Shown in pieces: positions 1,624 through 28,587 of a DNA stretch of 32,000 nt (position 1 is the first letter of the stretch; each line of letters opens with the position of its first letter). Both the position numbers and the translations under genes were made by a program. The DNA is from Xylanibacter ruminicola 23 (GTDB lineage: Bacteria; Bacteroidota; Bacteroidia; Bacteroidales; Bacteroidaceae), in the NCBI RefSeq assembly GCF_000025925.1, contig NC_014033.1, forward strand, positions 1,380,001 through 1,412,000, read 5' to 3'. Under the pieces are notes generated by a model that saw only the letters and a program-made list of their open reading frames with translations, was not told the origin of the DNA and ran no database searches.

Positions 1624-1650
1624 ATTGTCGTAGTTTCTGATTTTTGTGCA

Positions 1651-1658
1651 CAAAAGTA
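1651..1658 (-). promoter_or_regulatory. Bacteroidetes-type -7 promoter box (TACTTTTG on the minus strand) for the GH2 gene
   Basis: Plus-strand CAAAAGTA is the reverse complement of TAnnTTTG. It lies about 28 nt upstream of the GH2 ATG at 1623. Confidence 0.45.
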
Positions 1659-1701
1659 CAAAAAAAATGGATACCATACTAAACTTTCGTCATTTTTTTG
1701 C

Positions 1702-1709
1702 TATCTTTG
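1702..1709 (+). promoter_or_regulatory. Bacteroidetes-type -7 promoter box TATCTTTG for the GH29-GH92-GH29-GH3-GH92(-cutC) operon
   Basis: Exact TAnnTTTG match 30 nt upstream of ATG 1739. Confidence 0.5.
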
Positions 1710-1738
1710 CAACCATAACTAATATACAATTTCTATTT

Positions 1739-3109: not shown

Positions 3110-3135
3110 CACTTGTAAAACTAAACTTTGAACTT

Positions 3136-5412: not shown

Positions 5413-5423
5413 TAACACAAAAT

Positions 5424-7229: not shown

Positions 7230-7231
7230 AC

Positions 7232-9580
7232 ATGAAACGAATACTGATATCAACAATGGCTTGCTGCATGGCCCTGAGCCTGTCGGCCGCCAAAAAGAAA
7301 GCTAAGGAGCTACTGCCCTACCAGAACCCGAAACTCTCGGTAGAACAGCGTGTAAACGACCTGGTTAGTCGTATGACATTGCAGGAGAAAGTGGGCCAGT
7401 TACGCTGCACCTTGGCATGGAACTACTACACCATCAAAGGAAAGAATGTAGAACCCTCGGAGCTGTTTAAGAAGGATATTGCCGAAGGACAGATAGGTAT
7501 GCTCTGGGGTACCTACCGTGCCGACCCCTGGACACAGAAGTCGCTCGAGAACGGACTCAACCCCGAACTGGCAGCCAAGGCTGGTAATGCCCTGCAGAAG
7601 TATGTGATAGAGCACACCCGACTGGGTATCCCCCTGTTCTTAGCCGAAGAGGCACCCCACGGACATATGGCTATCGGCACTACCGTATTCCCCACCGGAT
7701 TCGGTATGGCTGCCACCTGGAACCCAGCCCTGATTGAGAAAACCGGCGAGGTGATTGGTCAGGAAATCCGCTTGCAGGGCGGCCATATCAGCTATGGTCC
7801 GGTATTAGACCTGGCCCGCGAGCCCCGTTGGTCGCGTGTCGAGGAGACGATGGGTGAAGACCCCGTACTGGCAGGCGAGTTAGGTGCTGCCATGGTAAAA
7901 GGACTGGGTGGCGGCATCCTGTCGAAGCCCTATAGCACCATCGCCACACTGAAGCATTTCATCGGCTACGGCACCACCGAGGCCGGACAGAATGGCGGTA
8001 TCACCATTGCCGGTGCACGCGAGTTGCAGGAGAGTTTCCTGCCCCCATTCAAGAAAGCCATCAATGCCGGCGCCCTGTCGGTGATGACCAGCTATAACTC
8101 GCTGGATGGTATCCCCAGCACCTGCAGCAAGGCGCTGCTTACCGACCTGCTGCGCACCCAGTGGGGATTCAACGGCTTTGTAGTCAGCGACCTGTATAGC
8201 ATCGACGGTATCCATGGCACCCACCGTGTAGCCGAGACCAAGCAGCAAGCAGGTGTGATGGCACTGAAGGCAGGTGTTGATGCCGACCTTGGTGCCCTGG
8301 CTTTCGGCAGATTGGAAGATGCCGTACAGAAAGGCATGGTAACTGAGGCTGAGATTGATGTAGCTGTCAAGCGCATTCTGAAGATGAAGTTCGAGATGGG
8401 CTTGTTTGAGCATCCTTATGTAGATGCAGCCCAGGCCAAGCAGCTGGTTCGCAGCGATAACAACAAGGCTGTTGCCCTGCAGGTGGCTCGCGAGATTATC
8501 ACCCTGCTTAAGAACCAGAACCACGTGCTGCCACTTAGTAAAACCCAGAAGGTGCTGGTGTGCGGACCTAATGCCGACAACGTGTATAACATGCTGGGCG
8601 ACTATACCGCACCACAGGAAGAAGGCAACGTAAAAACCATCCTCGCTGGCATCCGCAGCAAACTGCCAGCCAGTCAGGTAACCTACGTCAAGGGTTGTGC
8701 CGTACGCGACACCACCGCATCGAACATTGCCGAGGCAGTAGCTGCAGCCAAACAGGCCGATGTCGTCGTGGTAGCTGTAGGCGGTTCGAGTGCCCGCGAC
8801 TTCAAGACCAGCTATAAGGAGACCGGTGCTGCTGTTACCGACAGCAAGACTATCAGCGATATGGACTGCGGCGAAGGATTCGACCGTGCCACCCTCACCC
8901 CATTGGGTCATCAGATGCAGCTGCTCAAGGCCCTCAAGGCTATCGGTAAACCACTGGTAGTGGTATATATCGAAGGTCGTCCCATGGATAAGAGTTGGGC
9001 CGCCCAGCATGCCGATGCGCTACTCACAGCTTACTATCCCGGACAGGAAGGTGGTACCGCCATTGCCGACGTGCTGTTTGGTGATTATAACCCAGCCGGA
9101 CGCCTGCCTGTATCGGTACCCGCCAACGTAGGTCAGATTCCAGTTTACTACAACAAGAAGCCACCTATGCCACACGATTATGTAGAGATGAGTGCCCGTC
9201 CGCTGTATGCCTTTGGCTACGGCTTGTCGTACACCACCTTCAAGTACGACGACCTGAACATCGAGGAGACTGGCGATACCCAGTTTAAGGTAACCTTCAA
9301 CGTTACCAATACCGGCGATATGGATGGCGACGAGGTGGTGCAGCTGTATCTGCACGACGAGTTTGCCTCTACTGCCCAGCCTATGATGCAGCTCAAGAAG
9401 TTCAGTCGTATCTTCATCCCCAAGGGCGAAACCAAGCAGGTATCGTTCACCCTCGAAGCCGAGGACCTGGAGATTGTAGACCAAGAGATGAACCACGTCG
9501 TAGAGACTGGCGACTTTACCGTGATGATAGGTCCCAGCTCGGATAACATTATTCTTAAAGCCACATTTACCCAGAATTAA
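7232..9580 (+). CDS. GH3 exo-glycosidase (beta-glucosidase/beta-xylosidase type; specificity not determinable)
   Basis: Motifs RLGIPLFLAEEAPHG, GFNGFVVSDLYSIDG (nucleophile Asp region) and YPGQEGGTAIADVLFGDYNPAGRLPVS. The start lies 2 nt after the previous stop. Confidence 0.9.
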   Translation: MKRILISTMACCMALSLSAAKKKAKELLPYQNPKLSVEQRVNDLVSRMTLQEKVGQLRCTLAWNYYTIKGKNVEPSELFKKDIAEGQIGMLWGTYRADPWTQKSLENGLNPELAAKAGNALQKYVIEHTRLGIPLFLAEEAPHGHMAIGTTVFPTGFGMAATWNPALIEKTGEVIGQEIRLQGGHISYGPVLDLAREPRWSRVEETMGEDPVLAGELGAAMVKGLGGGILSKPYSTIATLKHFIGYGTTEAGQNGGITIAGARELQESFLPPFKKAINAGALSVMTSYNSLDGIPSTCSKALLTDLLRTQWGFNGFVVSDLYSIDGIHGTHRVAETKQQAGVMALKAGVDADLGALAFGRLEDAVQKGMVTEAEIDVAVKRILKMKFEMGLFEHPYVDAAQAKQLVRSDNNKAVALQVAREIITLLKNQNHVLPLSKTQKVLVCGPNADNVYNMLGDYTAPQEEGNVKTILAGIRSKLPASQVTYVKGCAVRDTTASNIAEAVAAAKQADVVVVAVGGSSARDFKTSYKETGAAVTDSKTISDMDCGEGFDRATLTPLGHQMQLLKALKAIGKPLVVVYIEGRPMDKSWAAQHADALLTAYYPGQEGGTAIADVLFGDYNPAGRLPVSVPANVGQIPVYYNKKPPMPHDYVEMSARPLYAFGYGLSYTTFKYDDLNIEETGDTQFKVTFNVTNTGDMDGDEVVQLYLHDEFASTAQPMMQLKKFSRIFIPKGETKQVSFTLEAEDLEIVDQEMNHVVETGDFTVMIGPSSDNIILKATFTQN

Positions 9581-11764
9581 ATGAAAAAGCTCATTTTTAC
9601 ATTTTTAAATTGTTACATTTTAGGCTCTCTGTCTATCAGCGCCCAGCAGCCCGTGGATTACGTCGATCCCTTTATCGGCACCACCAACTACAGCGTATGC
9701 AATCCAGGTGCCGTGTGCCCCAATGGCATGATGAGTGTGGTACCCTTTAACGTGATGGGTAGCGACCTGAACATGTACGATAAGGATAAGCGCTGGTGGT
9801 CGGCGCCTTACGAATATAACAACAAGTATTTCACCGGCTTTGCCCATGTAACGCTGAGTGGTGTGGGTTGTCCCGAACTGGGCACCCTGCTCACCATGCC
9901 TACCACCGGCAAACTGGATGTGGATTACCGCCACTACGGCTCGGAATACAGCAACGAGCAGGCCACCCCTGGCTACTATGCCGTAAGTCTGAAAAAGTAC
10001 GGCATCCGTTGCGAGGTTAGTGCCACCACCCGCAGTTCGGCCGAGCGTTTCACCTTTCCTAAAGGCGAGGGTCATATCCTGCTGAACCTGGGTAACGGAC
10101 TCACCAACGAGGTAGGTGGCATGGTGCGCCGTGTCAGCGATACCGAGATTGAGGGTTATCGCCTGGTGGGCACCTTCTGCTACAACCCGCAGGCCGTGTT
10201 CCCCATCTACTTTGTGATGCGAGTTAACAAACACCCCGTATCGGCAGGCTACTGGAAAAAGCAGCCACCGATGGACGGACCCGAAAAAGACTGGGACCCC
10301 GATCAGGGCAAATACAAGCTCTACACCACCTACGGCAAGGAGCTGGCTGGCGATGATGTAGGCTACTATTTCAACTACGATTGTGCCGAGGGCGAACAGA
10401 TTGAGGTGCAGATGGGCGTATCATTCGTATCTATCGAGAATGCCCGCCAGAACCTGAACACCGAACAGCCCCAATTTGCTTTCGACAACACCCGTCAGCA
10501 GGCCCGTCAGACTTGGGCTGAAACGCTGAACCGTGTTACCGTCGAGGGTGGCACCGAGGCCCAGCGCCGCATGTTCTACACCGCCCTGTATCACACCCAG
10601 ATTCACCCCAACATCCTGCAGGACGTTAACGGCCAGTACCCCGAAATGGAGAGCTTTAAGATTGGAAACATCAACAAAGGCAACCGTTATACGGTATTCT
10701 CACTCTGGGACACCTACCGCAACGTGGGTCAGCTGATGACACTACTCTACCCCGACAAGCAGTTGGATATGGTACGCTCTATGATTGGCATGTACAAGGA
10801 ATGGGGCTGGATGCCAAAGTGGGAACTGTACAGTCGCGAAACCTGGACGATGGAGGGCGATCCTGCCATCCCCTTTATTGCCGACACCTGGTTGAAGGGG
10901 CTGTGCGATTTCGATATCGACACCGCCTACGAGGCTTTCTATAAGTCGGCCACCCTGCCTGGCAAGGATAACAAGATGCGCCCCGATGTTGACAACTACT
11001 ACAAGCGCGGTTACGTGCCTATGGGCGAATATGCCGCCGATATGTCGGGCGACAACTCGGTATCGCACGCCTTGGAGTACTATATTGCCGATGCCTCGCT
11101 GGCAAACTTAGCCGAGGCTCTGGGTAAGAAACAGGATGCCAAGCGATTCCGCCAACAGAGTCTGGGCTACCGTCATTACTATTCTAAGGAGTCGGGTACG
11201 CTGCGCCCTATCAATCAGGATGGCACGTTCCTCACACCTTTCGATCCCAAGGATGGTGCCGACTTCTCGAATGCGCCCGGATTCCACGAGGGCAGCGCCT
11301 GGAACTACACCTTCTACGTGCCTCACGACATCAAGGGACTGGCACGCCTGATGGGTGGCGACAAGAAGTTTGTGCAGAAGCTGCAGCGCGTGTTCGACGA
11401 GGGATTGTACGACCCTGCCAACGAACCCGACATTGCCTACCCTTACCTGTTTACCTATTTCAAAGGCGAGGAATGGCGCACCGAGAAGATTGTTACCAGT
11501 CTGATTAACAAAAACTTCAGCGATAAGCCCAACGGCATTCCAGGCAACGACGATTGCGGCACCATGTCAACATGGCTCATCTTCTCGATGATGGGCTTGT
11601 ATCCCGATTGCCCTGGCACACCCAGCTACGCGCTTACCAAACCGGTATTCGATAAGGTAACGCTGCATCTCGACAAGCGTTATTACCCCAAGGGCGACAT
11701 CATCATCGATGGCACCAAACCCCTCAAGAAATATCGCATCTCGCATAGCGAGCTGGTGCATTAA
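9581..11764 (+). CDS. GH92 alpha-mannosidase (second copy)
   Basis: The ATG abuts the preceding TAA. Motifs are PVDYVDPFIGT, SGVGCPELG and GNDDCGTMSTWLIFSMMGLYPDCPG. Confidence 0.9.
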   Translation: MKKLIFTFLNCYILGSLSISAQQPVDYVDPFIGTTNYSVCNPGAVCPNGMMSVVPFNVMGSDLNMYDKDKRWWSAPYEYNNKYFTGFAHVTLSGVGCPELGTLLTMPTTGKLDVDYRHYGSEYSNEQATPGYYAVSLKKYGIRCEVSATTRSSAERFTFPKGEGHILLNLGNGLTNEVGGMVRRVSDTEIEGYRLVGTFCYNPQAVFPIYFVMRVNKHPVSAGYWKKQPPMDGPEKDWDPDQGKYKLYTTYGKELAGDDVGYYFNYDCAEGEQIEVQMGVSFVSIENARQNLNTEQPQFAFDNTRQQARQTWAETLNRVTVEGGTEAQRRMFYTALYHTQIHPNILQDVNGQYPEMESFKIGNINKGNRYTVFSLWDTYRNVGQLMTLLYPDKQLDMVRSMIGMYKEWGWMPKWELYSRETWTMEGDPAIPFIADTWLKGLCDFDIDTAYEAFYKSATLPGKDNKMRPDVDNYYKRGYVPMGEYAADMSGDNSVSHALEYYIADASLANLAEALGKKQDAKRFRQQSLGYRHYYSKESGTLRPINQDGTFLTPFDPKDGADFSNAPGFHEGSAWNYTFYVPHDIKGLARLMGGDKKFVQKLQRVFDEGLYDPANEPDIAYPYLFTYFKGEEWRTEKIVTSLINKNFSDKPNGIPGNDDCGTMSTWLIFSMMGLYPDCPGTPSYALTKPVFDKVTLHLDKRYYPKGDIIIDGTKPLKKYRISHSELVH

Positions 11765-14897: not shown

Positions 14898-15692
14898 TTA
14901 GCGTTTAATCTCTATGTCGTTCTTGACGTTGTTGCGAATCTTCGTCAGATAGCCCTTCATACCAGCGGCATCCTTCTGGTCGATAATCTCCAGCAGCTCC
15001 TTCAGCTCGGTACGAATCTGTGCCACCTGATCGTGCGTGTAGGGGTTGAACAGGATTTCCTGCAGCAGGTAGTCGTCCTCATTCAGCACGCCCTTGGCAA
15101 TACGCATATGGCGCTTAAAGGTAGTACCTGGTGCATCCTGATGCTTCATCACAGCAGCGAACACAAACGTTGAAACAAATGGAATACTCAGCGAGTAAGC
15201 CACCGTTTTATCGTGCTCCTCAAAGGTATACTCGTAGATGTTCAACCCCAGCTTGCGATACAGCTCCTTAAAGAAGCAACGACCCATGCAGTCGCCCTCC
15301 TGGATAATGATGGCATTCTCCTCGCTCAGCTGTTGCAGGTTGGCGAAGGTAGGACCAAACATCGGGTGCGTAGATACAAAGCGCATACCGGTCTGCTCAT
15401 AGAAGTCCTTCAGATCGGTCTTTACGCTGGCGATATCGCTGATAATGCACTCCTTAGGCAGGTAAGGTATCACCTCTTTAAACACGGGGATGGTATATTT
15501 CAGCGTTACCGCATTGATGAGCAGTTCGGGCTCAAAGGCCTTAATCTCATCGTAGGTGGTGAAACGCTGACAGTTGTATGTAAATCGCATGCGTTTGGCA
15601 TCTCTCTCAAACACAGCCACTTCGTGGTCGAAACTCAGCAGGTCGATGAAGAACGATCCCATCTTTCCTGCGCCCATTACTAATATTTTCAT
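14898..15692 (-). CDS. tyrA: Prephenate (or arogenate) dehydrogenase
   Basis: Rossmann motif MKILVMGAGKMGSFF and the STHPMFGP motif. Confidence 0.85.
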   Translation of the reverse strand: MKILVMGAGKMGSFFIDLLSFDHEVAVFERDAKRMRFTYNCQRFTTYDEIKAFEPELLINAVTLKYTIPVFKEVIPYLPKECIISDIASVKTDLKDFYEQTGMRFVSTHPMFGPTFANLQQLSEENAIIIQEGDCMGRCFFKELYRKLGLNIYEYTFEEHDKTVAYSLSIPFVSTFVFAAVMKHQDAPGTTFKRHMRIAKGVLNEDDYLLQEILFNPYTHDQVAQIRTELKELLEIIDQKDAAGMKGYLTKIRNNVKNDIEIKR

Positions 15693-15706
15693 TGCTTTTT
15701 TATTTT

Positions 15707-15781
15707 GGCACGAATTACGCGAATTTACACGAATTTTAGCTTATTATTCAATAATTCGCGTTAATTCGTGAAATTCGTGCC
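15707..15781. repeat. 75-bp imperfect palindrome between the DAHPS/CM stop and the tyrA start; three CRCGAATT units per arm
   Basis: Left arm GGCACGAATTaCGCGAATTtaCACGAATT. Right arm AATTCGCGttAATTCGTGaAATTCGTGCC. About 27 of 31 positions pair, including one G-U, and the outer 10 bp are perfect. Confidence 0.9.
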
Positions 15782-15787
15782 TAATAA

Positions 15788-16852
15788 TTACTTATTTATT
15801 ATTTCAATCTGCTGGCGAACGCTCTCTTCGTGGATGTTCTCGAATACGTGTGCTACGAACTCTGGGTCCATGCCACAGAGTGAGCCCTGGGCACCACGCT
15901 TGTTCAGGATTTCGTTGTAGCGGTTAGCCTGCAGTACTGTCATGTTGTGCTCCTTCTTGTACTGACCAATCTCGCGGCACACACGCATGCGCTTAGCCAA
16001 CAGATCCATCAGCTGGTTGTCCAGCTCGTCAATCTGCTTACGCAACTGGGTGATACCCTCGGTAGTGGTCTTCTCATCGCGGATTACCAACAAGCTCAGG
16101 ATGTAGTCGAGTACATCAGGTGTTACCTGCTGCTTGGCATCGCTCCAGGCCTTATCAGGATCGCAGTGGCTCTCCACAATCAGACCGTCGAAACCAAGGT
16201 CCATAGCCTGCTGACACAGAGGTGCTACCAGCTCACGACGTCCACCGATATGCGAGGGGTCGCTGATGATAGGCAGCTCAGGAATACGACGACGTAACTC
16301 AATGGGAATCTGCCACATAGGTGCGTTACGATAAATCTTTTGTTCGTAGCTTGAGAAACCACGATGGATAGCACCAAGACGCTTGATGCCAGCCTGATTG
16401 ATACGCTCCAAAGCACCAATCCAGAGCTCCAGGTCGGGGTTCACGGGGTTCTTTACGAACACGGGGATGTCCACGCCCTTCAGCGAGTCGGCAATAGCCT
16501 GCATGGCAAAGGGGTTGGCCGACGTACGGGCACCAATCCACAGGATATCTACACCGTGCTTCAGGCACAGCTCTACGTGCTCGGGAGTAGCAACCTCGGT
16601 AGAAACCAGCATCTTGGTTTCCTTCTTCACCTGCTCCAGCCATACCAGAGCGGGCTCGCCATGACCCTCAAAGCCACCGGGCTTGGTACGAGGCTTCCAC
16701 ACACCAGCGCGGAAGTTATGGCAGCCCTTCATAGCCAGCTGCTTAGCGGTTGTCATTACTTGTTCCTCGGTTTCAGCACTACAAGGGCCTGCAATCACAA
16801 AGGGACGTTCGTTGTCACTTGGTAAATTCAATGGTGATAATTCTAATTCCAT
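15788..16852 (-). CDS. Bifunctional 3-deoxy-7-phosphoheptulonate (DAHP) synthase class I-beta / chorismate mutase
   Basis: Motifs KPRTKPGGFEG and ISDPSH. The C-terminal chorismate-mutase helices contain LRKQIDELDNQLMDLLAKRMRVCREIGQYK. Confidence 0.9.
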   Translation of the reverse strand: MELELSPLNLPSDNERPFVIAGPCSAETEEQVMTTAKQLAMKGCHNFRAGVWKPRTKPGGFEGHGEPALVWLEQVKKETKMLVSTEVATPEHVELCLKHGVDILWIGARTSANPFAMQAIADSLKGVDIPVFVKNPVNPDLELWIGALERINQAGIKRLGAIHRGFSSYEQKIYRNAPMWQIPIELRRRIPELPIISDPSHIGGRRELVAPLCQQAMDLGFDGLIVESHCDPDKAWSDAKQQVTPDVLDYILSLLVIRDEKTTTEGITQLRKQIDELDNQLMDLLAKRMRVCREIGQYKKEHNMTVLQANRYNEILNKRGAQGSLCGMDPEFVAHVFENIHEESVRQQIEIINK

Positions 16853-16880
16853 GACTATATTTTTCTATTTTACTATTTCA

Positions 16881-18047
16881 CTATTTTACGATTTTCTCGA
16901 TGCGCTCGAGGGCGGCTTTGATCTTCTCTTCCTTGGCACAGAGCGAGATGCGGATGTATCGCTCGCCGTTGCTACCGAAGATAAAGCCTGGAGTTATAAA
17001 TACGCGGGCCTCGTGCAACACACGCTCTGTCAGGTCCTCTACGTTCTGGACATCAGCGGGAATCTTTCCCCACAGGAACATACCCACCTGATTCTTATCG
17101 TAGGTACAACCCAGCACATCCATAATCTTCTCGGCCCACTGGCGGCGACGCTTGTAGCTATCGATGTTGAACTCGCGATGCCAAGCCTCGTCGTTGTTGT
17201 TCAGCGCCTCGGCAGCAGCCAACTGAATGCCACGGAAGGTACCACTCTCAATGTTACTCTGCACCTTCAGTATCCACTGGATAAACTGTGGGTTCGACAA
17301 GCACATACCTACACGCCAACCGGGCATGTTATGACTCTTCGACATCGAGTTGAACTCAATACAGCAGTCCTTGGCGCCTGGCACCTGCATAATGCTCATG
17401 TGCTCCTCGCTCAGGATAAACGAGTAAGGGTTATCGTTCACCACCACAATGTTGTGATCCTGGGCAAACTTCACCAGTCGCTCGTAGGTTTCCATACGGG
17501 CACGTCCGCCTGTAGGCATATTGGGATAGTTGGTCCACATCAGCTTCACCTTCGAGAGGTCCATCTTCTCCAGTTCGTCGAAATCAGGCTGCCAACCGTT
17601 GTCCTCACGCAGATTGTAGTTTACGATTTTGGCACCCAGAATCTTGCTGAGCGATGTGTAGGTGGGATAGCCAGGATTGGGCACCAGCACCTCGTCGCCA
17701 GGGTTTACAAAGGCCAAGGTTACGTGCAGAATACCCTCTTTCGAACCAATCAGAGGCAATACCTCAGTCTTCCAGTCGAGCTCCACGTTGTACCAACGCT
17801 TGTAGAAGTTAGCCATGGCCTCACGCAGTTCGGGTGTACCTACTGTTATCTGATAGCCGTGTGCATCGGGCAGCTTAGCCACCTCGCACAGCTTTTCGAT
17901 GGTTCGCTCCGATGGTGGCATGTCGGGACTACCGATAGCCAATGAGATAATATCCTTACCCTCGGCGTTCATCTGCGCCACCTCCTTCAGTTTCCTACTA
18001 AAGTAGTACTCCTGCACCAAACTTAATCTATCTGCGGGTTGTATCAT
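16881..18047 (-). CDS. Class I PLP-dependent aminotransferase (aromatic/prephenate aminotransferase by context)
   Basis: FNSMSKSHNMPGWRVG (PLP lysine) and NPGYPTY. It sits inside the aromatic operon. Confidence 0.85.
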   Translation of the reverse strand: MIQPADRLSLVQEYYFSRKLKEVAQMNAEGKDIISLAIGSPDMPPSERTIEKLCEVAKLPDAHGYQITVGTPELREAMANFYKRWYNVELDWKTEVLPLIGSKEGILHVTLAFVNPGDEVLVPNPGYPTYTSLSKILGAKIVNYNLREDNGWQPDFDELEKMDLSKVKLMWTNYPNMPTGGRARMETYERLVKFAQDHNIVVVNDNPYSFILSEEHMSIMQVPGAKDCCIEFNSMSKSHNMPGWRVGMCLSNPQFIQWILKVQSNIESGTFRGIQLAAAEALNNNDEAWHREFNIDSYKRRRQWAEKIMDVLGCTYDKNQVGMFLWGKIPADVQNVEDLTERVLHEARVFITPGFIFGSNGERYIRISLCAKEEKIKAALERIEKIVK

Positions 18048-18075
18048 TTTAATCTTTAATGTTTAATCTTTTAAT
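18048..18075 (-). repeat. Copy C of the AAAGATTAAACATTAAAGATTAAA repeat, directly 5' of the aminotransferase ATG
   Basis: The reverse complement of 18048-18071 equals 11784-11807 (24 of 24). Confidence 0.9.
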
Positions 18076-18110
18076 CGTTTCTTTAGTACGCTTGGCATCG
18101 CCAAGAATGT

Positions 18111-18953
18111 TTAATTGGTCTGCTTCCCATCCTTGTACTCACCCAGAATCTTCAGCGCCTTGGTAAGTGGGATGATGGCATCCACCGCCTGACGGTATCG
18201 TGTCAGATCATCGTACATCACATCTACGTAGAACAGGTACTCCCACTCCTTGCCGATGATGGGCAGACTCTGAATCTTTGTGAGGTTGATGTGATAGAAC
18301 GACAGGATGGCCAGTACGTGTGCCAGCGAGCCCTGCTCGTGAGGCAGCGAGAACACCATGCTGCTCTTGTTAGTCTCTGTAAGCGGACGCATCATATCGG
18401 CCTTGTTAGGATTGCTCACTACCAGGAATCGGGTAAAGTTATGCTTGTTGTCCTCGATGTGGTCCTCGAGCACCTTCAGTCCGTACAGCTTGGCAGCCTC
18501 GGCATGACAGATGGCAGCCCATCCGCGCTTCTTGCCCTCGGCAATCATCTTGGCACTACCGGCAGTATCCTCGGCCTCCACATTCTTAAGCTGTGGGTGC
18601 TGTGCCAGGAAGTTGCGGCACTGCATCAGGGCTACGGGGTGCGAGTGTACCTCGGTAATGGTGTCCCAATCGTCCTCGGGCAAACAACAGATGCTGTGGG
18701 TGATGTGCAGCTTATGCTCGCCTACGATGGCAGTACCGCTATCACGCAGCAGCTCGTAGTTGTGCAACAGACTACCCGCAATCGTATTCTCGATAGCCAG
18801 CATACCTATGGCGGTAGGATCCTTCTGCATCTCCTCAAACACCTGTTCGAAGGTTGAGCAGCAAATCAACTGTATCTGTTCTCCCTCGAAGTACAGGTGC
18901 GCCGCGATATCGTGGAACGACCCGATTAATCCTTGTATTGCAATTCTCTTCAT
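18111..18953 (-). CDS. pheA: Prephenate dehydratase (PDT plus ACT domains)
   Basis: IAIQGLIGSFHDIAA and TRFLVV, followed by a C-terminal ACT-like region. Confidence 0.9.
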   Translation of the reverse strand: MKRIAIQGLIGSFHDIAAHLYFEGEQIQLICCSTFEQVFEEMQKDPTAIGMLAIENTIAGSLLHNYELLRDSGTAIVGEHKLHITHSICCLPEDDWDTITEVHSHPVALMQCRNFLAQHPQLKNVEAEDTAGSAKMIAEGKKRGWAAICHAEAAKLYGLKVLEDHIEDNKHNFTRFLVVSNPNKADMMRPLTETNKSSMVFSLPHEQGSLAHVLAILSFYHINLTKIQSLPIIGKEWEYLFYVDVMYDDLTRYRQAVDAIIPLTKALKILGEYKDGKQTN

Positions 18954-18989
18954 TATCTCAATTTTTACATTTTCTAATTTTTACACTTT

Positions 18990-19030
18990 AAAAAAGCAAG
19001 TCCCGCTATCACTTGGTTGTGAAGCGGGAC
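18990..19030 (-). terminator. Intrinsic terminator hairpin of the pheA leader (attenuator)
   Basis: Minus-strand RNA reads GUCCCGCU-UCAC-AACCAA-GUGA-U-AGCGGGAC (8+4 bp stem with a 1-nt bulge), then UUGCUUUUUU. It ends 37 nt upstream of the pheA ATG. Confidence 0.65.
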
Positions 19031-19066
19031 CTTGTTGTTTTATCTTCCATTGTCATAAGTTGAACT

Positions 19067-19144
19067 TTACACGCAACTTCCCGCTTCACAGTGTCCTGCA
19101 AAGTAAAAATAATAACCGTAAAACCACACATTCAACATTGACAT
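19067..19144 (-). CDS. Aromatic-rich leader peptide MSMLNVWFYGYYFYFAGHCEAGSCV (25 aa)
   Basis: Manual translation. Codons 7-15 are W F Y G Y Y F Y F. Codons 19-22 overlap the antiterminator segment. The ORF is below the size cut-off of the ORF track. Confidence 0.6.
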   Translation of the reverse strand: MSMLNVWFYGYYFYFAGHCEAGSCV

Positions 19145-19172
19145 AATTCTCTCGTTTATTTGTTTACGGCTG

Positions 19173-19180
19173 CAAAAGTA
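19173..19180 (-). promoter_or_regulatory. -7 promoter box TACTTTTG (minus strand) of the aromatic operon; TTTG -33-like element at the complement of 19201-19204
   Basis: Exact TAnnTTTG match, with a TTTG 20 nt upstream. It lies 28 nt before the leader ATG. Confidence 0.5.
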
Positions 19181-19210
19181 TAGTATTTTTGCGAAATAAA
19201 CAAATAAAAT

Positions 19211-19234
19211 GGCAGAAATTTTGCGATTTCTGCC
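19211..19234 (-). terminator. Terminator of the primase-helicase module
   Basis: GGCAGAAAT-(6 nt)-ATTTCTGCC is a perfect 9-bp stem. On the minus strand it is followed by AUUUUAUUUGUUUAUUU. It lies 36 nt after the stop at 19270. Confidence 0.6.
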
Positions 19235-19269
19235 ACAAATTGTTATTTTTCGTGCTTTTACCTATATAT

Positions 19270-21795
19270 TTACGGTAATTCTTTTAAAATTTTACGATAT
19301 ACGCCATAACTTACTTTCTTGATTACGCCATCCTCTTTCAAGCGCTTTAGAGCACGCGATGTGGCAGAATCACTCGTGCCAAAACTGTCCTTAAACTGCT
19401 GCGTATTAAACTCCTCAGGCAACTGGCGGAAACATTCATCGTAACGCGTGGTGCGACGACGCTGTACAAACTCCTTATTCTGATCGGCAAAATAGTTAAA
19501 CGCCATCTCGCCAAAGAAGAACTTCTGAGACTGATACTGAATGTCCATCACCACACGACAGAAACGCTTATCTGTCTCATCCATGGATAGCGTGTGGTGC
19601 TCCTGCCACTCGTCCCAATGGCGCATCAGGATAAAGGGCAACGAGATGCCAATACCGTAATACGGAATACGCTTTAACAACATGCGATCGGCCTTATCGC
19701 CATTAAATTCAGCTATCTCCATCTTATCGGTCTGCCACTCATAGGTTTCGTCGTTCAGCGGTTCAATGGGTATCTCACCAGCCACCTTATCCAATCGGTA
19801 GGCCCACTTCTTCAACGTTTCTTCGCTACCCTCAATCACCTCTTGGTAGCGCTCCACCTTACCTTTATCAGGCAAAGGGATAACTGCCAGTCGGGTGCTC
19901 ATACCCGTACCAAAATTACGCTGGTTCACTTTGCGATGCAGGGCATAAGGCGTGCCGGTGTAGATAAAGTTCCAATACACGTTGAACATACCCGTTACGC
20001 TCTCCTGATTAGCGTACATCTGTCCGTCCTCCTCGTTGTGAAAGGCTTTCAGCTCCAGAATCTCACGGTCTTTCCAATCGCCACCTTTGTTATTTTTGGT
20101 AACGTTGTCAAGTTCCGAGTCGAACGAGAACATGTGCAGGTTCAGCGGCTTGCCATCTATCGTTTCGATGGCTGCATTCATGTGGCGGATAAACTCACCG
20201 GTAGCCGTACGTGCAGGGTGTACGCGGATGCCTACAGCAGGTCGTTTCAATGCCTCGCCCTTCTGCGCCTTGGTGCTGGTGGTGCGTTCCGTGCGCCCCT
20301 CCTTGTAGCGGTTCACAGCATCTATCAAACAGCTATCGGCTTGAATCATCGGGTCGGCAATCTGCTTGTAAAACTCCTCAATCATATGCTTTCCCGCACC
20401 AGGATCGCCGATAATAAAGATGCAGTAATTCAAGCGACGCACAATCTTTGGCGCAAACCAGAAGTGATACCAGGCACGCGTCATCAACGTCCCGAACAGC
20501 GCCGCCGATGAGAACAATACCGCTGGCAGTTTATGGGGATGCACATTCACAAACAGCTCCTTCATACAAGGATAAAACTCAGCCATCTCCTGCAACTCTT
20601 CAGCCCACTTATCCAGCGGCAATTGCGAGTAAACATCATCAGCCTCCCCCGCCCCCTCCAAAGGGAGGGGAGAATTTACAGTTGGTTCCGAAGGCTCTAA
20701 TACAGCCTTCATCTCCTTTGAGATTTTTGGCAGCCAGGCCTTCCCCTTCTTGGCATTATCGTTCTCCTGTGCCGTTACGTAGTCGGCAGCATTATCCACG
20801 GTACGCTTCACATCCTCGCCGCGCTCTGCTATCATATCCTGTACCCAAGGCTGTACCATCAGCAGGGCCAGTGTCTTAGCCTTATCACGGTCGGTCATAA
20901 TGTACAAATCGCGAGCCAGCACCACGCTGGCCTCATGCCTCGAAACCTCATCGCTGCTGGTAGATCGTTTTTTCCACCATGCTGCGATTATCGAGAGTAA
21001 CGGCATGCCATTGTACGTCAGAAGCTCAGCAATCCGCAGGTTGTCTCCATCGCCAGCTGATAAAGCAGGTTGGTTTTCTCCAGCACTTTCCACAGCGGCC
21101 ATATCAGCGCTATCAGCACTATTCTTAGCAACGTTAATAGTAGGCTGGCTACGACCAGCATGGTACTCATCGTTATACTTCTTACCAAATTCTTCGTTTT
21201 CATACGTAATCAATTTTTCTTCGTCAATAAAAATAATATCTTCACTTGTAGTAAGGAACGCACCCCTTGAGGCATCCTTGCAAGCCTCATCGGGGTTAAG
21301 CCCCAGCTTTTTAGAGAACACTATCTGGTTGTCAATCAGGTTGCCTACGTTGGCATCAGCCATAAACACAACCTTCAATCCATGCCCCGATGGCGTAACG
21401 TACACAAACAGAATCCTGGCCTTATCCTCGTCAGACAACTTGGCATAAGCTTCCTCCCAAACCTGGCGCACATCGCCCTCCACATGGTCAAAGTCAATCA
21501 CACACAAGCCGTTTAGCTTACAATGTTGCTGACTGCGCCAACTGCCCTTCTTAAAGGTTACATCGCCAGTAAGTTTGTTCTCAAACTTCTTATCCCATTC
21601 TTCATAGGTGGCAATGAAAATCACAAACGGCAGACTCTTTTTCTTGTTGTCGTAGGCATTCTTATCACCTCGGGCCAGCGCCTCGCGGGCTTCCTTTACT
21701 TTTCTGATAGTTTCAGGCGCCGTAATTAGCGCCCGAAACTGTTCTACTGTAACTATTTCGGTTGGTAAACCGAAGCTTCGTTGAAAGCAAAACAT
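19270..21795 (-). CDS. AEP-type primase (BT4734/VirE_N-like) fused to a P-loop NTPase; putative primase-helicase
   Basis: N-terminal prim-pol motifs are LCVIDFDHVEG (DxD) and VYVTPSGHGLKVVF. The C-terminal half has IFIIGDPGAGKH (Walker A with His in place of Ser/Thr) and MFSFDSE (Walker B-like). It overlaps the upstream gene by 43 nt. Confidence 0.6.
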   Translation of the reverse strand: MFCFQRSFGLPTEIVTVEQFRALITAPETIRKVKEAREALARGDKNAYDNKKKSLPFVIFIATYEEWDKKFENKLTGDVTFKKGSWRSQQHCKLNGLCVIDFDHVEGDVRQVWEEAYAKLSDEDKARILFVYVTPSGHGLKVVFMADANVGNLIDNQIVFSKKLGLNPDEACKDASRGAFLTTSEDIIFIDEEKLITYENEEFGKKYNDEYHAGRSQPTINVAKNSADSADMAAVESAGENQPALSAGDGDNLRIAELLTYNGMPLLSIIAAWWKKRSTSSDEVSRHEASVVLARDLYIMTDRDKAKTLALLMVQPWVQDMIAERGEDVKRTVDNAADYVTAQENDNAKKGKAWLPKISKEMKAVLEPSEPTVNSPLPLEGAGEADDVYSQLPLDKWAEELQEMAEFYPCMKELFVNVHPHKLPAVLFSSAALFGTLMTRAWYHFWFAPKIVRRLNYCIFIIGDPGAGKHMIEEFYKQIADPMIQADSCLIDAVNRYKEGRTERTTSTKAQKGEALKRPAVGIRVHPARTATGEFIRHMNAAIETIDGKPLNLHMFSFDSELDNVTKNNKGGDWKDREILELKAFHNEEDGQMYANQESVTGMFNVYWNFIYTGTPYALHRKVNQRNFGTGMSTRLAVIPLPDKGKVERYQEVIEGSEETLKKWAYRLDKVAGEIPIEPLNDETYEWQTDKMEIAEFNGDKADRMLLKRIPYYGIGISLPFILMRHWDEWQEHHTLSMDETDKRFCRVVMDIQYQSQKFFFGEMAFNYFADQNKEFVQRRRTTRYDECFRQLPEEFNTQQFKDSFGTSDSATSRALKRLKEDGVIKKVSYGVYRKILKELP

Positions 21796-26857: not shown

Positions 26858-27310
26858 ATGAATGAACCAGAGATAAAAAAGGCGGATGTTTCTACCGAGC
26901 TGGAGCTGCCGATGTACGATGCGATTGCAGCCGGATTTCCCATTACCAGCGACTATCCTGCTGACAGGTTGGACTTTAATCGCGACTTTATCAAGCACCC
27001 CGAAAGTACGTTTTATGTACGTGTGAAAGGTGACTCGATGAAGGAGGCCGGCATTTTTGATGGCGACTTGTGCCTGGTGGATAAAGCCGAGGAGATGGAA
27101 CACGGCAATATCGTAGCTGCGTATGTAAACGGTGGCTTTACGGTGAAGTATCTCGATACATCCACCAAGGATCAGGGCTTTATCCGACTGGTGCCTGCCA
27201 ATAAGGATTTCAAGCCGTTTATCATCGATTCGTCAGATGAGTTTACCGTCTGGGGCAAAGTAATTTTTACCATTAGAGACTGGAGGAATAGCTATTGTTT
27301 GCCATTATAG
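26858..27310 (+). CDS. umuD: UmuD-like S24 peptidase (SOS mutagenesis accessory subunit)
   Basis: Ala-Gly self-cleavage site in YDAIAAGFP, Ser nucleophile in KGDSM, Lys in FTVKYL. No N-terminal DNA-binding domain. Confidence 0.85.
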   Translation: MNEPEIKKADVSTELELPMYDAIAAGFPITSDYPADRLDFNRDFIKHPESTFYVRVKGDSMKEAGIFDGDLCLVDKAEEMEHGNIVAAYVNGGFTVKYLDTSTKDQGFIRLVPANKDFKPFIIDSSDEFTVWGKVIFTIRDWRNSYCLPL

Positions 27311-28587
27311 ATTGCGATAATTGCTTCGTGAGTTGCGAGCGTGTATTTAGGCCCGATCTCAACGGAAAGCCCGTCGTTGTATTGTCGAACAACGATGGTT
27401 GTGTGGTTGCGCGCTCAAACGAAGCAAAGGCCATGGGCATCAAAGCTGGAACACCTTATTATCAGCTGAAGGAGCTCTTCCCCGGACAGGAGATAGCCGT
27501 ATTTTCATCGAACTACGAACTGTATATCGATATGACCGACAGAGTGATGTCGCTTATCCGAAAGGAGGTGCCTGAATTCTATCGTTACAGCATCGACGAA
27601 GGTTTCTGTATGCTCAAGGGGTTGGAGCATCTCGACCTGAAAGCATGGGGCGAGGAGATGCACCAGCGCATCAAACAATGCACGGGCATGCCGGTAAGCA
27701 TAGGCATCGCCTCTACCAAGACCTTGGCTAAGATGGCCAGCCATTATGCCAAGAAATACCCCGGATTTCACCATTGTTGCTATATCAACCATGTGTCACG
27801 TCGCGACAAGGCCTTGGAACTTTATCCCATCAGCGAGGTTTGGGGTATAGGCCGACAGTATGCCAAGCGACTTGAAGCTATAGGCATCAAGACAGCCTAT
27901 GATTTTGCAACTCAAAGCCGAAGTTGGGTTCGATCCACCTTTAATGTGGTGGTTGAGCGCACCTGGCGTGAACTGAATGGCGAGGATTGCATTTTGCTGG
28001 AGGACATGAGCAAGAAGAAAAGTATCTGTACCAGCAGGAGTTTCCCCGGGATGGTGAACGATTTTGAGACGCTGCGAACCAGTATCAGCAACTTTGCCGC
28101 CCATTGTGCCGAGAAGCTACGCAAACAGCAATCGGCAGCGGCGATAGTGAGTGTATTTATCGACACGAACCACTTCAGAGAAGATCTACCCCAGTATTGG
28201 AACTATGCCGAGGAACGACTGTTGACACCCAGCAGTAGCACGCAGGATATCGTGCAATGTGCGCTGCGATGCACCAAACAGATATACCGACAAGGCTACC
28301 AATACAAGCGAGCGGGTGTGATTGTGATGGGCATTTGCCCTGATACGGCTGTGCAGACCAATTTCATCGACTACGATTCGGAGAAATATGAGAAAAAGCG
28401 AAAACTGGATGAAGCCATCGACCGTATCAATCGCATAAATGGTAGTGAGACTGTGGTGCTGGGGGCGCAACAATATACGGCTAAAGACGGTAAAGGCCGA
28501 GCTAGTATTTTCCGTGACAGCATCAAGCACGACTTCCGCAGTCCAAGCTACACTACCAAGTGGAGTGATATCCCAGAAGCGGAATAA
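27295..28587 (+). CDS. umuC: UmuC-like Y-family DNA polymerase (Pol V catalytic subunit type)
   Basis: (M)FAIIDCDNCFVSCERVFRPDLNGKPVVVLSNNDGCVVARSNEAKAMGIK closely parallels the E. coli UmuC N-terminus. TTG start, 16-nt overlap with umuD. Confidence 0.9.
   Translation: MFAIIDCDNCFVSCERVFRPDLNGKPVVVLSNNDGCVVARSNEAKAMGIKAGTPYYQLKELFPGQEIAVFSSNYELYIDMTDRVMSLIRKEVPEFYRYSIDEGFCMLKGLEHLDLKAWGEEMHQRIKQCTGMPVSIGIASTKTLAKMASHYAKKYPGFHHCCYINHVSRRDKALELYPISEVWGIGRQYAKRLEAIGIKTAYDFATQSRSWVRSTFNVVVERTWRELNGEDCILLEDMSKKKSICTSRSFPGMVNDFETLRTSISNFAAHCAEKLRKQQSAAAIVSVFIDTNHFREDLPQYWNYAEERLLTPSSSTQDIVQCALRCTKQIYRQGYQYKRAGVIVMGICPDTAVQTNFIDYDSEKYEKKRKLDEAIDRINRINGSETVVLGAQQYTAKDGKGRASIFRDSIKHDFRSPSYTTKWSDIPEAE

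What the first reader, a model, noticed from the sequence alone, without database searches (positions are those of the whole stretch)
18990..19204. Leader-peptide transcription attenuator with a Trp/Phe/Tyr codon run upstream of the pheA-aminotransferase-DAHPS/CM-tyrA operon
This region has the full logic of a ribosome-mediated attenuator, placed in front of an operon that makes both Phe and Tyr.
- Position: it lies on the minus strand between a TAnnTTTG box (complement of 19173-19180) and the pheA ATG (18953).
- Leader ORF: a 25-codon ORF (19144 down to 19067) encodes MSMLNVWFYGYYFYFAGHCEAGSCV. Eight of nine consecutive codons (7-15) are aromatic: 1 W, 3 F, 4 Y.
- Antiterminator: codons 19-22 (UGUGAAGCGGGA, complement of 19079-19090) are a perfect 12-nt complement of UCCCGCUUCACA (complement of 19018-19029).
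- Terminator: that second segment is also the 5' arm of a hairpin with an 8+4 bp stem, followed by UUGCUUUUUU (18990-19030).
- Predicted behaviour: a ribosome reaching the stop codon would mask segment 1, so the terminator forms. A ribosome stalled on the early W/F/Y codons leaves segment 1 free to sequester the terminator arm.

Such attenuators are textbook in Proteobacteria. They are sparsely documented experimentally in Bacteroidetes, where translation initiation is atypical.
Basis: partly seen in the sequence, partly recalled or inferred. Interest (0 to 1): 0.75.

Follow-up and report, generated by a model that had tools for sequence, protein, structure and literature searches.

The report
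Phe/Tyr leader-peptide attenuator before pheA
This is a well-conserved, textbook-style "leader peptide" switch that very likely turns the phenylalanine/tyrosine biosynthesis operon of a rumen Prevotella on when charged Phe- or Tyr-tRNA runs short; the mechanism is classical, and a similar element has already been described in another member of the phylum.

Summary
The window is from Xylanibacter (Prevotella) ruminicola.

**Conservation.** The 25-codon leader ORF occurs upstream of pheA in 79 of 79 related Prevotellaceae species. Synonymous codon changes keep the amino acids. The start codon has a Bacteroidetes-type A-rich context, and the stop position is fixed.

**Structures.** In that hairpin (1:2) the Phe/Tyr codons pair with segment 2. 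The antiterminator core is invariant, and its flanks co-evolve.

**Ribosome-footprint model.** The antiterminator can form with the ribosome on any aromatic codon. It cannot form once the ribosome is three codons past the run.

**Corrections.**
- Trp is not conserved (11 of 80), so this is a Tyr/Phe leader.
- The switch has four segments, not three.

**Wider distribution.**
- Nine of ten distant Bacteroidota pheA loci carry an aromatic (Phe/Tyr-rich) leader ORF plus a terminator-like hairpin.
- A Flavobacterium psychrophilum pheA leader with the same architecture was published in 2021.
- No Rfam family matches.

**Verdict.** A new member of a known kind: the evidence is strong, the novelty is modest, and there are no experimental data.

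The parts
19201..19204 (-). Bacteroidetes-type -33 promoter element, TTTG
   Evidence: Read from the sequence. It lies 20 nt upstream of the -7 box. The function is inferred from the published Bacteroides promoter consensus (own knowledge).
19173..19180 (-). Bacteroidetes-type -7 promoter box, TAnnTTTG (TACTTTTG)
   Evidence: A TAnnTTTG box lies upstream of the leader ATG in 73 of 80 orthologous leaders. None of the 77 loci that could be scored has one between the terminator and pheA.
19145..19170 (-). A-rich 5' UTR and SD-less translation initiation region of the leader ORF
   Evidence: Across 79 leaders, A is present at -13 in 99%, at -12 in 97%, at -3 in 78% and at -6 in 61%. These are the positive determinants reported for Bacteroidetes initiation (PMC6847099).
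19067..19144 (-). Leader ORF of 25 codons plus stop: MSMLNVWFYGYYFYFAGHCEAGSCV*
   Evidence: It is present in 79 of 79 orthologous loci. Synonymous third-position variation keeps the amino acid at codons 5, 6, 7, 10 and 12. The stop is at codon 26 in 78 of 80.
19100..19126 (-). Regulatory codon run, codons 7-15 (W F Y G Y Y F Y F; family consensus Y F Y G Y Y F Y F)
   Evidence: Substitutions stay within the aromatic residues (TAT/TTT/TTC, TAC/TAT/TGG).
19096..19109 (-). Segment 1: UUUUUACUUUGCAG (codons 12-16), the 5' arm of the 1:2 hairpin. An outer extension, CGGUU, lies at 19114-19118.
   Evidence: Seen in the MFE fold. The inner 8 bp pair in 80 of 80 sequences. The closing pair is A-U in 48 and G-C in 31, with none unpaired. 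RNAalifold predicts it independently.
19078..19091 (-). Segment 2: CUGUGAAGCGGGAA (codons 18-22). It pairs either with segment 1 or with segment 3 (the antiterminator uses 19079-19090).
   Evidence: The core TGTGAAGCGG is invariant at the nucleotide level, including third codon positions.
19074..19075 (-). Invariant Y-G dinucleotide in codon 24. The amino acid alternates between Cys and Arg. Together with the invariant G at 19084 it fits either an outer 1:2 stem pair or a G-10/Y-1/G+1 RNA-polymerase pause signal.
   Evidence: The pause reading is inference only.
19031..19066 (-). Variable, A-rich spacer between the leader stop and segment 3
   Evidence: Segment 2 to segment 3 spacing is 32-54 nt (median 52). 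The sequence is not conserved and is often made of 8-nt tandem repeats.
19018..19032 (-). Segment 3: AGGUCCCGCUUCACA. It is the 3' arm of the antiterminator and the 5' arm of the terminator.
   Evidence: The core CCGCTTCAC is invariant in 80 sequences although its flanks are variable.
18998..19012 (-). Segment 4: GUGAUAGCGGGACUU, the 3' arm of the terminator
   Evidence: 96.7% of cells are paired. Two pairs show compensatory changes (CG:45/UA:29 and CG:41/UA:33).
18990..18997 (-). U-rich tract of the intrinsic terminator (GCUUUUUU)
   Evidence: At least 6 T in an 8-nt window after the hairpin in 76 of 80 orthologues.
14898..18953 (-). Regulated operon: pheA (18953-18111), aminotransferase (18047-16881), DAHP synthase/chorismate mutase (16852-15788), prephenate dehydrogenase (15692-14898)
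   Evidence: Pfam and NCBIfam matches. The same gene order follows the leader in relatives.

Best explanation
This is a classical ribosome-mediated (leader-peptide) transcription attenuator that senses charged Tyr-tRNA and Phe-tRNA.

**Proposed mechanism**
1. Transcription starts at the Bacteroidetes-type promoter at about 19170.
2. A ribosome initiates at the SD-less, A-rich start site (19144) and translates the 25-codon leader.
3. If Tyr- or Phe-tRNA is scarce, the ribosome stalls with one of codons 7-15 in its A site.
   - It then sits on segment 1, so the 1:2 hairpin cannot form.
   - Segment 2, which begins 9 nt after the last aromatic codon, stays outside the ribosome footprint.
   - Segment 2 pairs with segment 3 as soon as segment 3 emerges.
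   - The terminator cannot form, and RNA polymerase reads through into pheA, the aminotransferase gene, the DAHPS/CM gene and tyrA.
4. If both tRNAs are plentiful, the ribosome runs on to the stop codon, 11 nt after the segment 2 core, and covers segment 2.
   - Segment 3 pairs with segment 4.
   - Transcription ends at about 18990, giving a leader transcript of roughly 180 nt.

**Shown here:** the sequence elements, their conservation, covariation in 1:2 and 3:4, co-evolving 2:3 flanks, a codon-level signature of translation, and the fit of the geometry to a footprint model.

**Inferred:** actual translation, actual termination, the response to amino-acid supply, and any pausing role of the 1:2 hairpin.
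For: **Leader ORF**
- It is present in 79 of 79 Prevotellaceae loci, and all 80 sequences are distinct.
- Third-position changes keep the amino acid: N5 AAT42/AAC36, A6 with all four codons, G10 GGC53/GGT23/GGA1, Y12 TAC57/TAT22. Changes at codons 7 and 11 stay aromatic.
- The start context has A at -13 and -12 in 97-99% of sequences, matching PMC6847099.
- The element is linked to the operon, not to the upstream neighbour.

**RNA structures**
- Terminator: -21.9 kcal/mol, z = -5.6, with two strongly compensatory pairs.
- 1:2 hairpin: the inner 8 bp are 100% paired, and the closing pair switches between A-U (48) and G-C (31) with none unpaired.
- RNAalifold finds both helices unaided.
- Antiterminator: a 12-nt perfect complement (0 of 1000 shuffles reach 12) with a 10-bp core invariant in 80 sequences.
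- Native 2:3 flanks pair better than swapped ones: -23.7 against -22.3 +/- 0.24 kcal/mol, 0 of 5000 permutations as good.

**Geometry**
- 9 nt from the last aromatic codon to the segment 2 core in 79 of 79.
- 11 nt from the segment 2 core to the stop codon in 77 of 79.

**Footprint model**
- P(2:3) is 1.00 for A-site codons 1-15, 0.78 at codon 16, 0.44 at codon 17, 0.02 at codon 18 and 0.00 from codon 19 to the stop.
- Across orthologues the median is 1.00 on aromatic codons and 0.00 at the stop.

**Context**
- No promoter box lies between the terminator and pheA in any of 77 loci scored.
- The operon makes both Phe and Tyr.
- The published F. psychrophilum pheA leader shows the same boundary in the model. 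Its 5' segment and downstream operon are differentially expressed, with read-through in poor medium (PMC9723704).
Against: - No experimental data exist for this organism.
- The antiterminator core never varies, so it gives no direct covariation. Pair 121/174 is unpaired in 32 of 80 sequences.
- The flank swap test is not corrected for phylogeny, and the segment 3 flank is also constrained by the terminator.
- With the full transcript at equilibrium the terminator wins for almost every ribosome position. The switch therefore has to be kinetic, as in E. coli trp.
- The 1:2 hairpin is weak (-9.2 kcal/mol against -24.7 for 2:3). Its protective role without translation is doubtful.
- The footprint size (-18 to +11 nt around the first A-site nucleotide) is an assumption taken from other bacteria.
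- Coupling of transcription and translation has not been demonstrated in Bacteroidota.
Confidence: 0.85

Rival explanations
1. The terminator/antiterminator switch is real but is set by something other than ribosome position, such as an RNA-binding protein, a small ligand or an uncharged tRNA binding the leader RNA. The ORF would then be incidental.
For: - The strongly conserved nucleotides (TTTTACTTTGCA, TGTGAAGCGG, CCGCTTCAC) could in principle form a binding site.
- The antiterminator core shows no covariation.
Against: - The codon-level pattern shows selection on the reading frame: synonymous wobble changes, aromatic-to-aromatic replacements, a conserved ATG with a Bacteroidetes initiation context, and a fixed stop position.
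- Distant lineages keep an aromatic ORF while the RNA sequence changes completely.
- No riboswitch, T-box or other Rfam family matches, even at E < 10.
Confidence: 0.05
2. The leader ORF does regulate the operon, but mainly by a route other than the intrinsic terminator. Candidates are Rho-dependent termination, mRNA stability, or effects on pheA translation.
For: - The spacers are long, A-rich and unstructured.
- One natural variant, L008, lacks the 3' arm of the terminator yet keeps the ORF and segments 1-3.
Against: - 79 of 80 loci keep a strong hairpin, and 76 of 80 have at least 6 T in the 8 nt after it.
- The terminator stem covaries.
- Segment 3 is shared between the antiterminator and the terminator, which only makes sense if the terminator is what is being controlled.
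Confidence: 0.05
3. The small ORF with its terminator is an independent gene for a small aromatic-rich peptide, and pheA is transcribed separately.
For: An ORF followed by a terminator is formally a complete transcription unit.
Against: - There is no promoter box between the terminator and pheA in any of 77 loci scored.
- The N- and C-terminal residues of the peptide vary freely. The invariant stretches are invariant at the nucleotide level and coincide with RNA stems.
- The ORF is always linked to pheA, whatever the upstream neighbour.
- The conserved 2:3 complementarity has no role in this reading.
- The peptide matches no NCBIfam family.
Confidence: 0.03

Closest known systems
Flavobacterium psychrophilum pheA-aspC3 leader-peptide attenuation element (THC0290_N_0195; Guerin et al. 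2021, ISME Commun, PMC9723704, SI D9 and Table S7)
   Same: - Same phylum and the same operon head (pheA followed by an aminotransferase).
- A short ORF with a mixed Phe/Tyr(/Trp) run: MNTNNTFYSNNSFYFYWNIGRDCYMVI.
- A purine-rich segment 2 inside the ORF that is complementary to the 5' arm of a terminator containing TCCCG.
- In my footprint model the antiterminator is allowed up to the last aromatic codon and forbidden from two codons later.
- No Rfam family in either case.
   Different: - Primary sequence is not alignable by eye, and I ran no formal homology test.
- The peptide has 27 rather than 25 codons, and the aromatic codons are split into two groups.
- The helices are weaker (2:3 at -14.3 and terminator at -13.7 kcal/mol, against -24.7 and -21.9).
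- That element has transcriptome support (a separate 5' segment, read-through in poor medium). The Prevotella element has none.
Escherichia coli and gamma-proteobacterial pheL-pheA attenuator (Rfam Phe_leader, named from memory; pheL survey in PMC3082878)
   Same: Same logic: a leader peptide rich in the cognate amino acid, 1:2, 2:3 and 3:4 alternative pairings, and an intrinsic terminator in front of pheA.
   Different: - pheL is shorter and carries Phe codons only. Here Tyr and Phe alternate and Tyr is the more frequent.
- The regulated operon here also contains the DAHPS/CM and tyrA genes, so one leader governs both branches.
- Initiation is SD-less.
- There is no sequence or covariance-model similarity (no Rfam hit).
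Bacteroid-trp RNA motif (RF01692; Weinberg et al. 2010, PMC2864571)
   Same: It is a cis-regulatory leader of an aromatic amino-acid operon (trp) in Bacteroidetes. The Flavobacterium paper treats it as a Trp leader-peptide RNA.
   Different: It belongs to a different operon and a different amino acid. The covariance model does not match this region, even at E < 10.
E. coli trp operon attenuator (trpL), own knowledge
   Same: - A four-segment architecture.
- The terminator is thermodynamically favoured on the full transcript, so control is kinetic.
- The 1:2 hairpin overlaps the regulatory codons.
- The stop codon is placed so that a terminating ribosome masks segment 2.
   Different: - There are two Trp codons there, against eight aromatic codons here.
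- Here 2:3 (-24.7) is far stronger than 1:2 (-9.2). Super-attenuation in the absence of translation is therefore not assured.

Membership tests
Ribosome-mediated (leader-peptide) transcription attenuators of amino-acid operons (trpL/pheL/hisL class) | A short translated ORF lies between the operon promoter and the first structural gene. | tested here: met
   The ORF is at 19144-19067 and is conserved in 79 of 79 loci. It shows a synonymous-site pattern and a fixed stop and a Bacteroidetes initiation context. Translation itself was not observed.
Ribosome-mediated (leader-peptide) transcription attenuators of amino-acid operons (trpL/pheL/hisL class) | The ORF contains a cluster of codons for the amino acid(s) made by the operon. 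| tested here: met
   8 of 9 codons are aromatic, which is unique in the window. Tyr and Phe are conserved; Trp is not. The operon encodes PDT, PDH, CM/DAHPS and an aminotransferase.
Ribosome-mediated (leader-peptide) transcription attenuators of amino-acid operons (trpL/pheL/hisL class) | An intrinsic terminator lies between the leader ORF and the first structural gene, with no internal promoter. | tested here: met
   The hairpin is -21.9 kcal/mol with z = -5.6. Two pairs covary, and RNAalifold predicts it. A T-rich tract follows in 79 of 80 loci, and 0 of 77 have a promoter box downstream.
Ribosome-mediated (leader-peptide) transcription attenuators of amino-acid operons (trpL/pheL/hisL class) | An antiterminator pairing is mutually exclusive with the terminator. 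| tested here: met
   There is a 12-nt perfect complement sharing segment 3 with the terminator, and 0 of 1000 shuffles reach 12 nt. The 10-bp core is invariant and the flanks co-evolve. Direct covariation in the core is absent because the core never varies.
Ribosome-mediated (leader-peptide) transcription attenuators of amino-acid operons (trpL/pheL/hisL class) | A segment 1:2 hairpin overlaps the regulatory codons. | tested here: met
   The inner 8 bp are always paired, and the closing pair is A-U in 48 and G-C in 31 sequences.
Ribosome-mediated (leader-peptide) transcription attenuators of amino-acid operons (trpL/pheL/hisL class) | A ribosome stalled on the regulatory codons leaves segment 2 free, and a ribosome at the stop codon masks it. 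| tested here: met
   The footprint model places the boundary at codons 15 to 18. Spacings of 9 nt and 11 nt are fixed in 79 of 79 and 77 of 79 loci. This rests on a model with an assumed footprint.
Ribosome-mediated (leader-peptide) transcription attenuators of amino-acid operons (trpL/pheL/hisL class) | Read-through increases when the cognate amino acid or charged tRNA is limiting. | not testable with these tools
   This needs Term-seq, RNA-seq or reporter assays with and without Phe and Tyr.
Rfam Phe_leader (gamma-proteobacterial pheL) and other Rfam leader families | A match to the family covariance model. | tested here: not met
   No family reaches its gathering score in the 32-kb window. 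No leader family appears among hits with E <= 10 in 18800-19400.
Rfam Bacteroid-trp (RF01692) | A match to the family covariance model. | tested here: not met
   Searches give no hit.
Bacteroidota pheA leader element (as described for F. psychrophilum, PMC9723704) | An aromatic-run sORF plus terminator directly upstream of a pheA-aminotransferase operon in a Bacteroidota genome. | tested here: met
   The same arrangement is seen in 9 of 10 distant Bacteroidota-like pheA loci.
Bacteroidota pheA leader element (as described for F. psychrophilum, PMC9723704) | Common descent, shown by detectable sequence or structure homology of the RNA. | tested here: inconclusive
   Only a shared TCCCG in the terminator 5' arm, in 8 of 12 lineages, and the same ribosome-position boundary. 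I built no covariance model spanning the lineages.
Riboswitch or T-box leaders | A match to a known ligand- or tRNA-binding RNA fold. | tested here: not met
   There is no Rfam hit, and the reading frame is under selection.

The most novel reading that the evidence does not exclude
Beyond cis attenuation, the abundant terminated leader transcript of about 180 nt, or its aromatic peptide, might have a second, trans-acting role. The precedent is the Sinorhizobium trp attenuator products rnTrpL and peTrpL (PMC7298713, PMC7968998).

A more modest version is that the leader works as an OR gate for two amino acids, Tyr and Phe. It would then be an ancient, phylum-wide Bacteroidota RNA family that has no Rfam entry, and its existence would imply tight coupling of transcription and translation in a phylum without Shine-Dalgarno initiation.

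Nothing in my data excludes the trans-acting reading, and nothing specifically supports it. The nucleotide invariance is already explained by the overlapping alternative helices.
Probability: 0.05. Interest if true: 0.6.

Novelty: new member of a known kind. Interest (0 to 1): 0.3.

Why it matters
- **Operon regulation.** It shows how rumen and gut Prevotellaceae probably regulate the costly Phe/Tyr pathway: one leader reads the charging of two tRNAs for an operon that serves both branches.
- **Distribution.** The same design recurs upstream of pheA across distant Bacteroidota. It is probably ancient, and it is missing from Rfam, so genome annotation currently ignores it.
- **A testable question.** Ribosome-mediated attenuation only works if the leading ribosome follows RNA polymerase closely. 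A conserved element of this type is indirect evidence for transcription-translation coupling in a phylum that initiates translation without Shine-Dalgarno pairing. It also offers a compact natural reporter for testing that question.
- **Limits.** None of this changes textbook understanding of attenuation.

Tried and rejected
- **Rfam scans.** Scans at gathering threshold and at E <= 10 gave no relevant family. The weak hits (KRAS_3UTR, snoRNAs, RsaJ) are chance matches to A/T-rich sequence or to terminators.
- **Equilibrium folding of the complete leader with a masked ribosome.** The terminator dominates at nearly every position, so the test was uninformative. I replaced it with the truncated-transcript model, which reflects the order of synthesis.
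- **Reaching Bacteroides proper through protein searches.**
  - The search for homologous proteins returned only Prevotella-like proteins of at least 79% identity.
  - The 50%-identity representatives are mostly unnamed MAG proteins.
  - I therefore cannot say whether B. thetaiotaomicron or B. fragilis carry the element.
  - The B. theta transcriptome supplements mention no pheA or prephenate dehydratase entry.
- **Older comparative papers.** Vitreschak 2004 and Lopatovskaya 2010 are recalled from memory as predicting attenuators in Bacteroidetes. They are not in the library, so I could not check what they say about pheA.
- **The overlapping 40-aa ORF (19131-19009, another frame).** I rejected it because it runs through the spacer, which is not conserved.
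- **The hairpin at 19236-19209.** This is the terminator of the upstream 841-aa gene and not part of the attenuator.
- **Single-sequence antiterminator searches in distant lineages.** Five were significant, two marginal and two not. I claim the full switch only where it is supported.
Full report
**Source and context**

The PheA protein encoded at 18953-18111 is 99% identical to that of Xylanibacter (Prevotella) ruminicola strains. Downstream of the feature, all on the minus strand, lie four genes:
- prephenate dehydratase (18953-18111)
- a class I/II aminotransferase (18047-16881)
- a DAHP synthase/chorismate mutase fusion (16852-15788)
- prephenate dehydrogenase (15692-14898)

The operon therefore serves both the Phe and Tyr branches. 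The upstream gene (21795-19270, an 841-aa PrimPol/BT4734-like protein) has its own terminator at 19236-19209. It is not conserved as a neighbour. In a relative with 80% PheA identity the neighbour is a SpoU methylase, yet the leader is still there.

**Checking the observation**

- the TAnnTTTG box (19180-19173), with a TTTG 20 nt upstream
- the 25-codon ORF MSMLNVWFYGYYFYFAGHCEAGSCV (19144-19067), with 8 of 9 aromatic codons
- the perfect 12-nt complement between 19090-19079 and 19029-19018
- a hairpin plus U-run ending at 18990

None of this is chance:
- The hairpin folds at -21.9 kcal/mol (z = -5.6, 0 of 200 shuffles as good).
- The 2:3 region folds at -23.9 kcal/mol (z = -3.4).
- No dinucleotide shuffle of the leader gives a 12-nt perfect helix (0 of 1000).
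- The aromatic run is the only place in six frames of 32 kb with at least 7 of 9 aromatic codons. The next small ORF has 5, and 200 shuffled windows never exceed 6.

The full-length fold shows that UUUUUACUUUGCAG (codons 12-16, 19109-19096) pairs with CUGUGAAGCGGGAA (19091-19078). The element is a four-segment attenuator.

**Comparative evidence within Prevotellaceae**

A genome scan returned 80 loci from different species, with PheA 90-99% identical. All 79 that include upstream DNA carry the leader ORF, and all leader sequences are distinct. I aligned them as A1.

*Conserved blocks.* These are the promoter box, the ATG, the aromatic run, TGTGAAGCGG, CCGCTTCAC and the terminator 3' arm plus T-run. 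The spacers are free to vary in sequence and length.

*Evidence for translation.*
- Asn5 (AAT 42 / AAC 36), Ala6 (all four codons), Gly10 (GGC/GGT/GGA) and Tyr12 (TAC 57 / TAT 22) vary at the third position while the amino acid is kept.
- Codons 7 and 11 change only among aromatic residues.
- The stop codon is at codon 26 in 78 of 80 sequences, although residues 22-25 vary.
- By contrast, codons 13-16 and 19-21 are invariant even at wobble positions, and they coincide with RNA stems.
- The Trp codon is present in only 11 of 80 sequences, so the conserved signal is Tyr/Phe.

*Start context.* A is present at -13 (99%), -12 (97%), -3 (78%) and -6 (61%). These are the positive determinants of SD-less initiation reported for Bacteroidetes (PMC6847099).

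**Structure counts**

| Helix | Result |
|---|---|
| 1:2 hairpin | Inner 8 bp paired in 80 of 80. Closing pair A-U in 48, G-C in 31, none unpaired. |
| Terminator (3:4) | 96.7% of cells paired. Two pairs with compensatory changes (CG:45/UA:29, CG:41/UA:33). |
| Antiterminator (2:3) | 10 bp are invariant, so there is no covariation either way. |

RNAalifold predicts both the 1:2 hairpin and the terminator without guidance. It adds outer 1:2 pairs between codons 9-10 and codons 23-24.

For the antiterminator I used a swap test. Native segment 2 and segment 3 flanks pair better than partners exchanged between species: -23.7 against -22.3 +/- 0.24 kcal/mol, with 0 of 5000 permutations as good. Different clades use different extensions of the core. 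This is suggestive, but it is not corrected for phylogeny.

**Geometry and model**

The last aromatic codon ends exactly 9 nt before the segment 2 core in 79 of 79 leaders. The stop codon begins 11 nt after the core in 77 of 79.

In the model, a ribosome footprint (18 nt 5' to 11 nt 3' of the first A-site nucleotide) is kept unpaired, and the transcript is cut after segment 3. The probability of the 2:3 helix is then:
- 1.00 for A-site codons 1-15
- 0.78 at codon 16 and 0.44 at codon 17
- 0.02 at codon 18 and 0.00 from codon 19 to the stop

Across orthologues the median is 1.00 on aromatic codons and 0.00 at the stop. The aromatic run thus ends at the last position compatible with antitermination.

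With the whole transcript at equilibrium the terminator wins almost everywhere. Control must therefore be kinetic, as in E. coli trp (own knowledge).

The 1:2 hairpin is weak (-9.2 kcal/mol) compared with 2:3 (-24.7). It may act mainly as a pause or timing hairpin. An invariant G...YG pattern (19084, 19075-19074) fits an elemental pause consensus. It also fits the outer 1:2 stem, so this stays open.

No promoter box lies between the terminator and pheA in any of 77 loci scored. The operon therefore depends on read-through.

**Beyond the family**

I reached ten more distant pheA lineages (44-72% PheA identity) through representative proteins.
- One has pheA 7 nt after frr and no leader.
- The other nine all have an aromatic small ORF, for example MNASFARFYFYFYFGLPPEGGGRCS, MNNASFAFSFWFYFYFIR and MKKFNAFFFSYYFYFANNCKAGSCV. 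Each is followed by a hairpin, usually with a T-run.
- A complementary partner for the terminator 5' arm, starting 8-16 nt after the last aromatic codon, is significant against shuffles in five. It is marginal in two and not significant in two.
- A TCCCG motif recurs in the terminator 5' arm in 8 of 12 lineages.

**What is already known**

- Guerin et al. [quoted passage not shown] It encodes a 27-aa peptide, MNTNNTFYSNNSFYFYWNIGRDCYMVI.
  - It is supported by a separately expressed 5' segment and by read-through in poor medium.
  - The authors note that it has no Rfam hit and is conserved in other Flavobacteriaceae (PMC9723704).
  - In my model it behaves the same way: P(2:3) is 0.95 up to W17 and 0 from codon 19.
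- Rfam holds Bacteroid-trp for the trp operon (PMC2864571), but nothing matches here.
- The B. thetaiotaomicron transcriptome paper only remarks that some long 5' UTRs contain leader-like sORFs (PMC7366714).
- I found no genetic or biochemical test of any such attenuator in the phylum, and no report for Prevotella.

**Verdict**

The mechanism is classical, and an equivalent element has been published for another Bacteroidota genus. I therefore rate it a new member of a known kind, with modest interest (0.3).

Its residual value is threefold:
- It is an unusually clean, strongly constrained example.
- It is probably an ancient phylum-wide family with no Rfam entry.
- It is a natural handle on transcription-translation coupling in SD-less bacteria.

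Noticed in passing
window 18951-18989; L028 2335-2368 and 2415-2498; many rows of alignment A1: The sequence-variable spacers of these leaders are often built from purine/A-rich tandem repeats with an 8-nt period (GAAGAATT, AAAATTGA, GTAAAAAG, AGAGTTAA). The spacers concerned are stop to segment 3, terminator to pheA ATG, and sometimes the region upstream of the leader ATG. Copy number differs between species, and the terminator-to-pheA distance ranges from 10 to 93 nt. They may simply keep the spacer and the SD-less pheA start site unstructured. Function unknown.
   Followed up: partly
L008 2287-2503: One of the 80 species has lost the 3' arm and T-run of the terminator while keeping the leader ORF and segments 1-3. 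It is either a natural constitutive variant or an assembly error.
   Followed up: no
window 19074-19084 (minus strand): An invariant G (19084) and an invariant Y-G (19075-19074) lie about 10 nt after the 1:2 hairpin. Codon 24 alternates between Cys (TGY) and Arg (CGN), so the nucleotides are conserved but the amino acid is not. This fits either an RNA-polymerase pause signal or the outer 1:2 stem predicted by RNAalifold.
   Followed up: partly
window 19270-21795 (-), 27295-28587 (+): Directly upstream of the leader lies an 841-aa gene with a BT4734-like/PrimPol-like N-terminal domain. Further on is a Y-family (ImpB/UmuC-type) polymerase gene. Relatives have other neighbours here (a SpoU methylase in L081). 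This side of the window may be a mobile-element insertion next to the pheA operon.
   Followed up: no
L084/L085 1493-1501: In one Bacteroidales MAG lineage (PheA 45% identical) pheA starts 7 nt after the ribosome-recycling-factor gene. It has no leader, and its operon is pheA-aminotransferase-tyrA. This is an example of the attenuator being absent.
   Followed up: no
L094 about 1360-1500: In this distant lineage the aromatic run is weak (MQKITYIRLYFRIYFQVLE, 4 of 9). A TAnnTTTG-like box lies just after the terminator, 141 nt before pheA. It may be a decaying or rewired attenuator.
   Followed up: no
window 1646-11764 (+): A run of glycoside hydrolase genes lies here: two alpha-L-fucosidases, two GH92 and one GH3. 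It is followed by a CutC-family gene and is unrelated to the finding.
   Followed up: no
window 19009-19131 (-): A 40-aa ORF in another frame overlaps the leader and runs through the spacer into segment 3. The spacer is not conserved in relatives, so it is very probably not a gene.
   Followed up: partly
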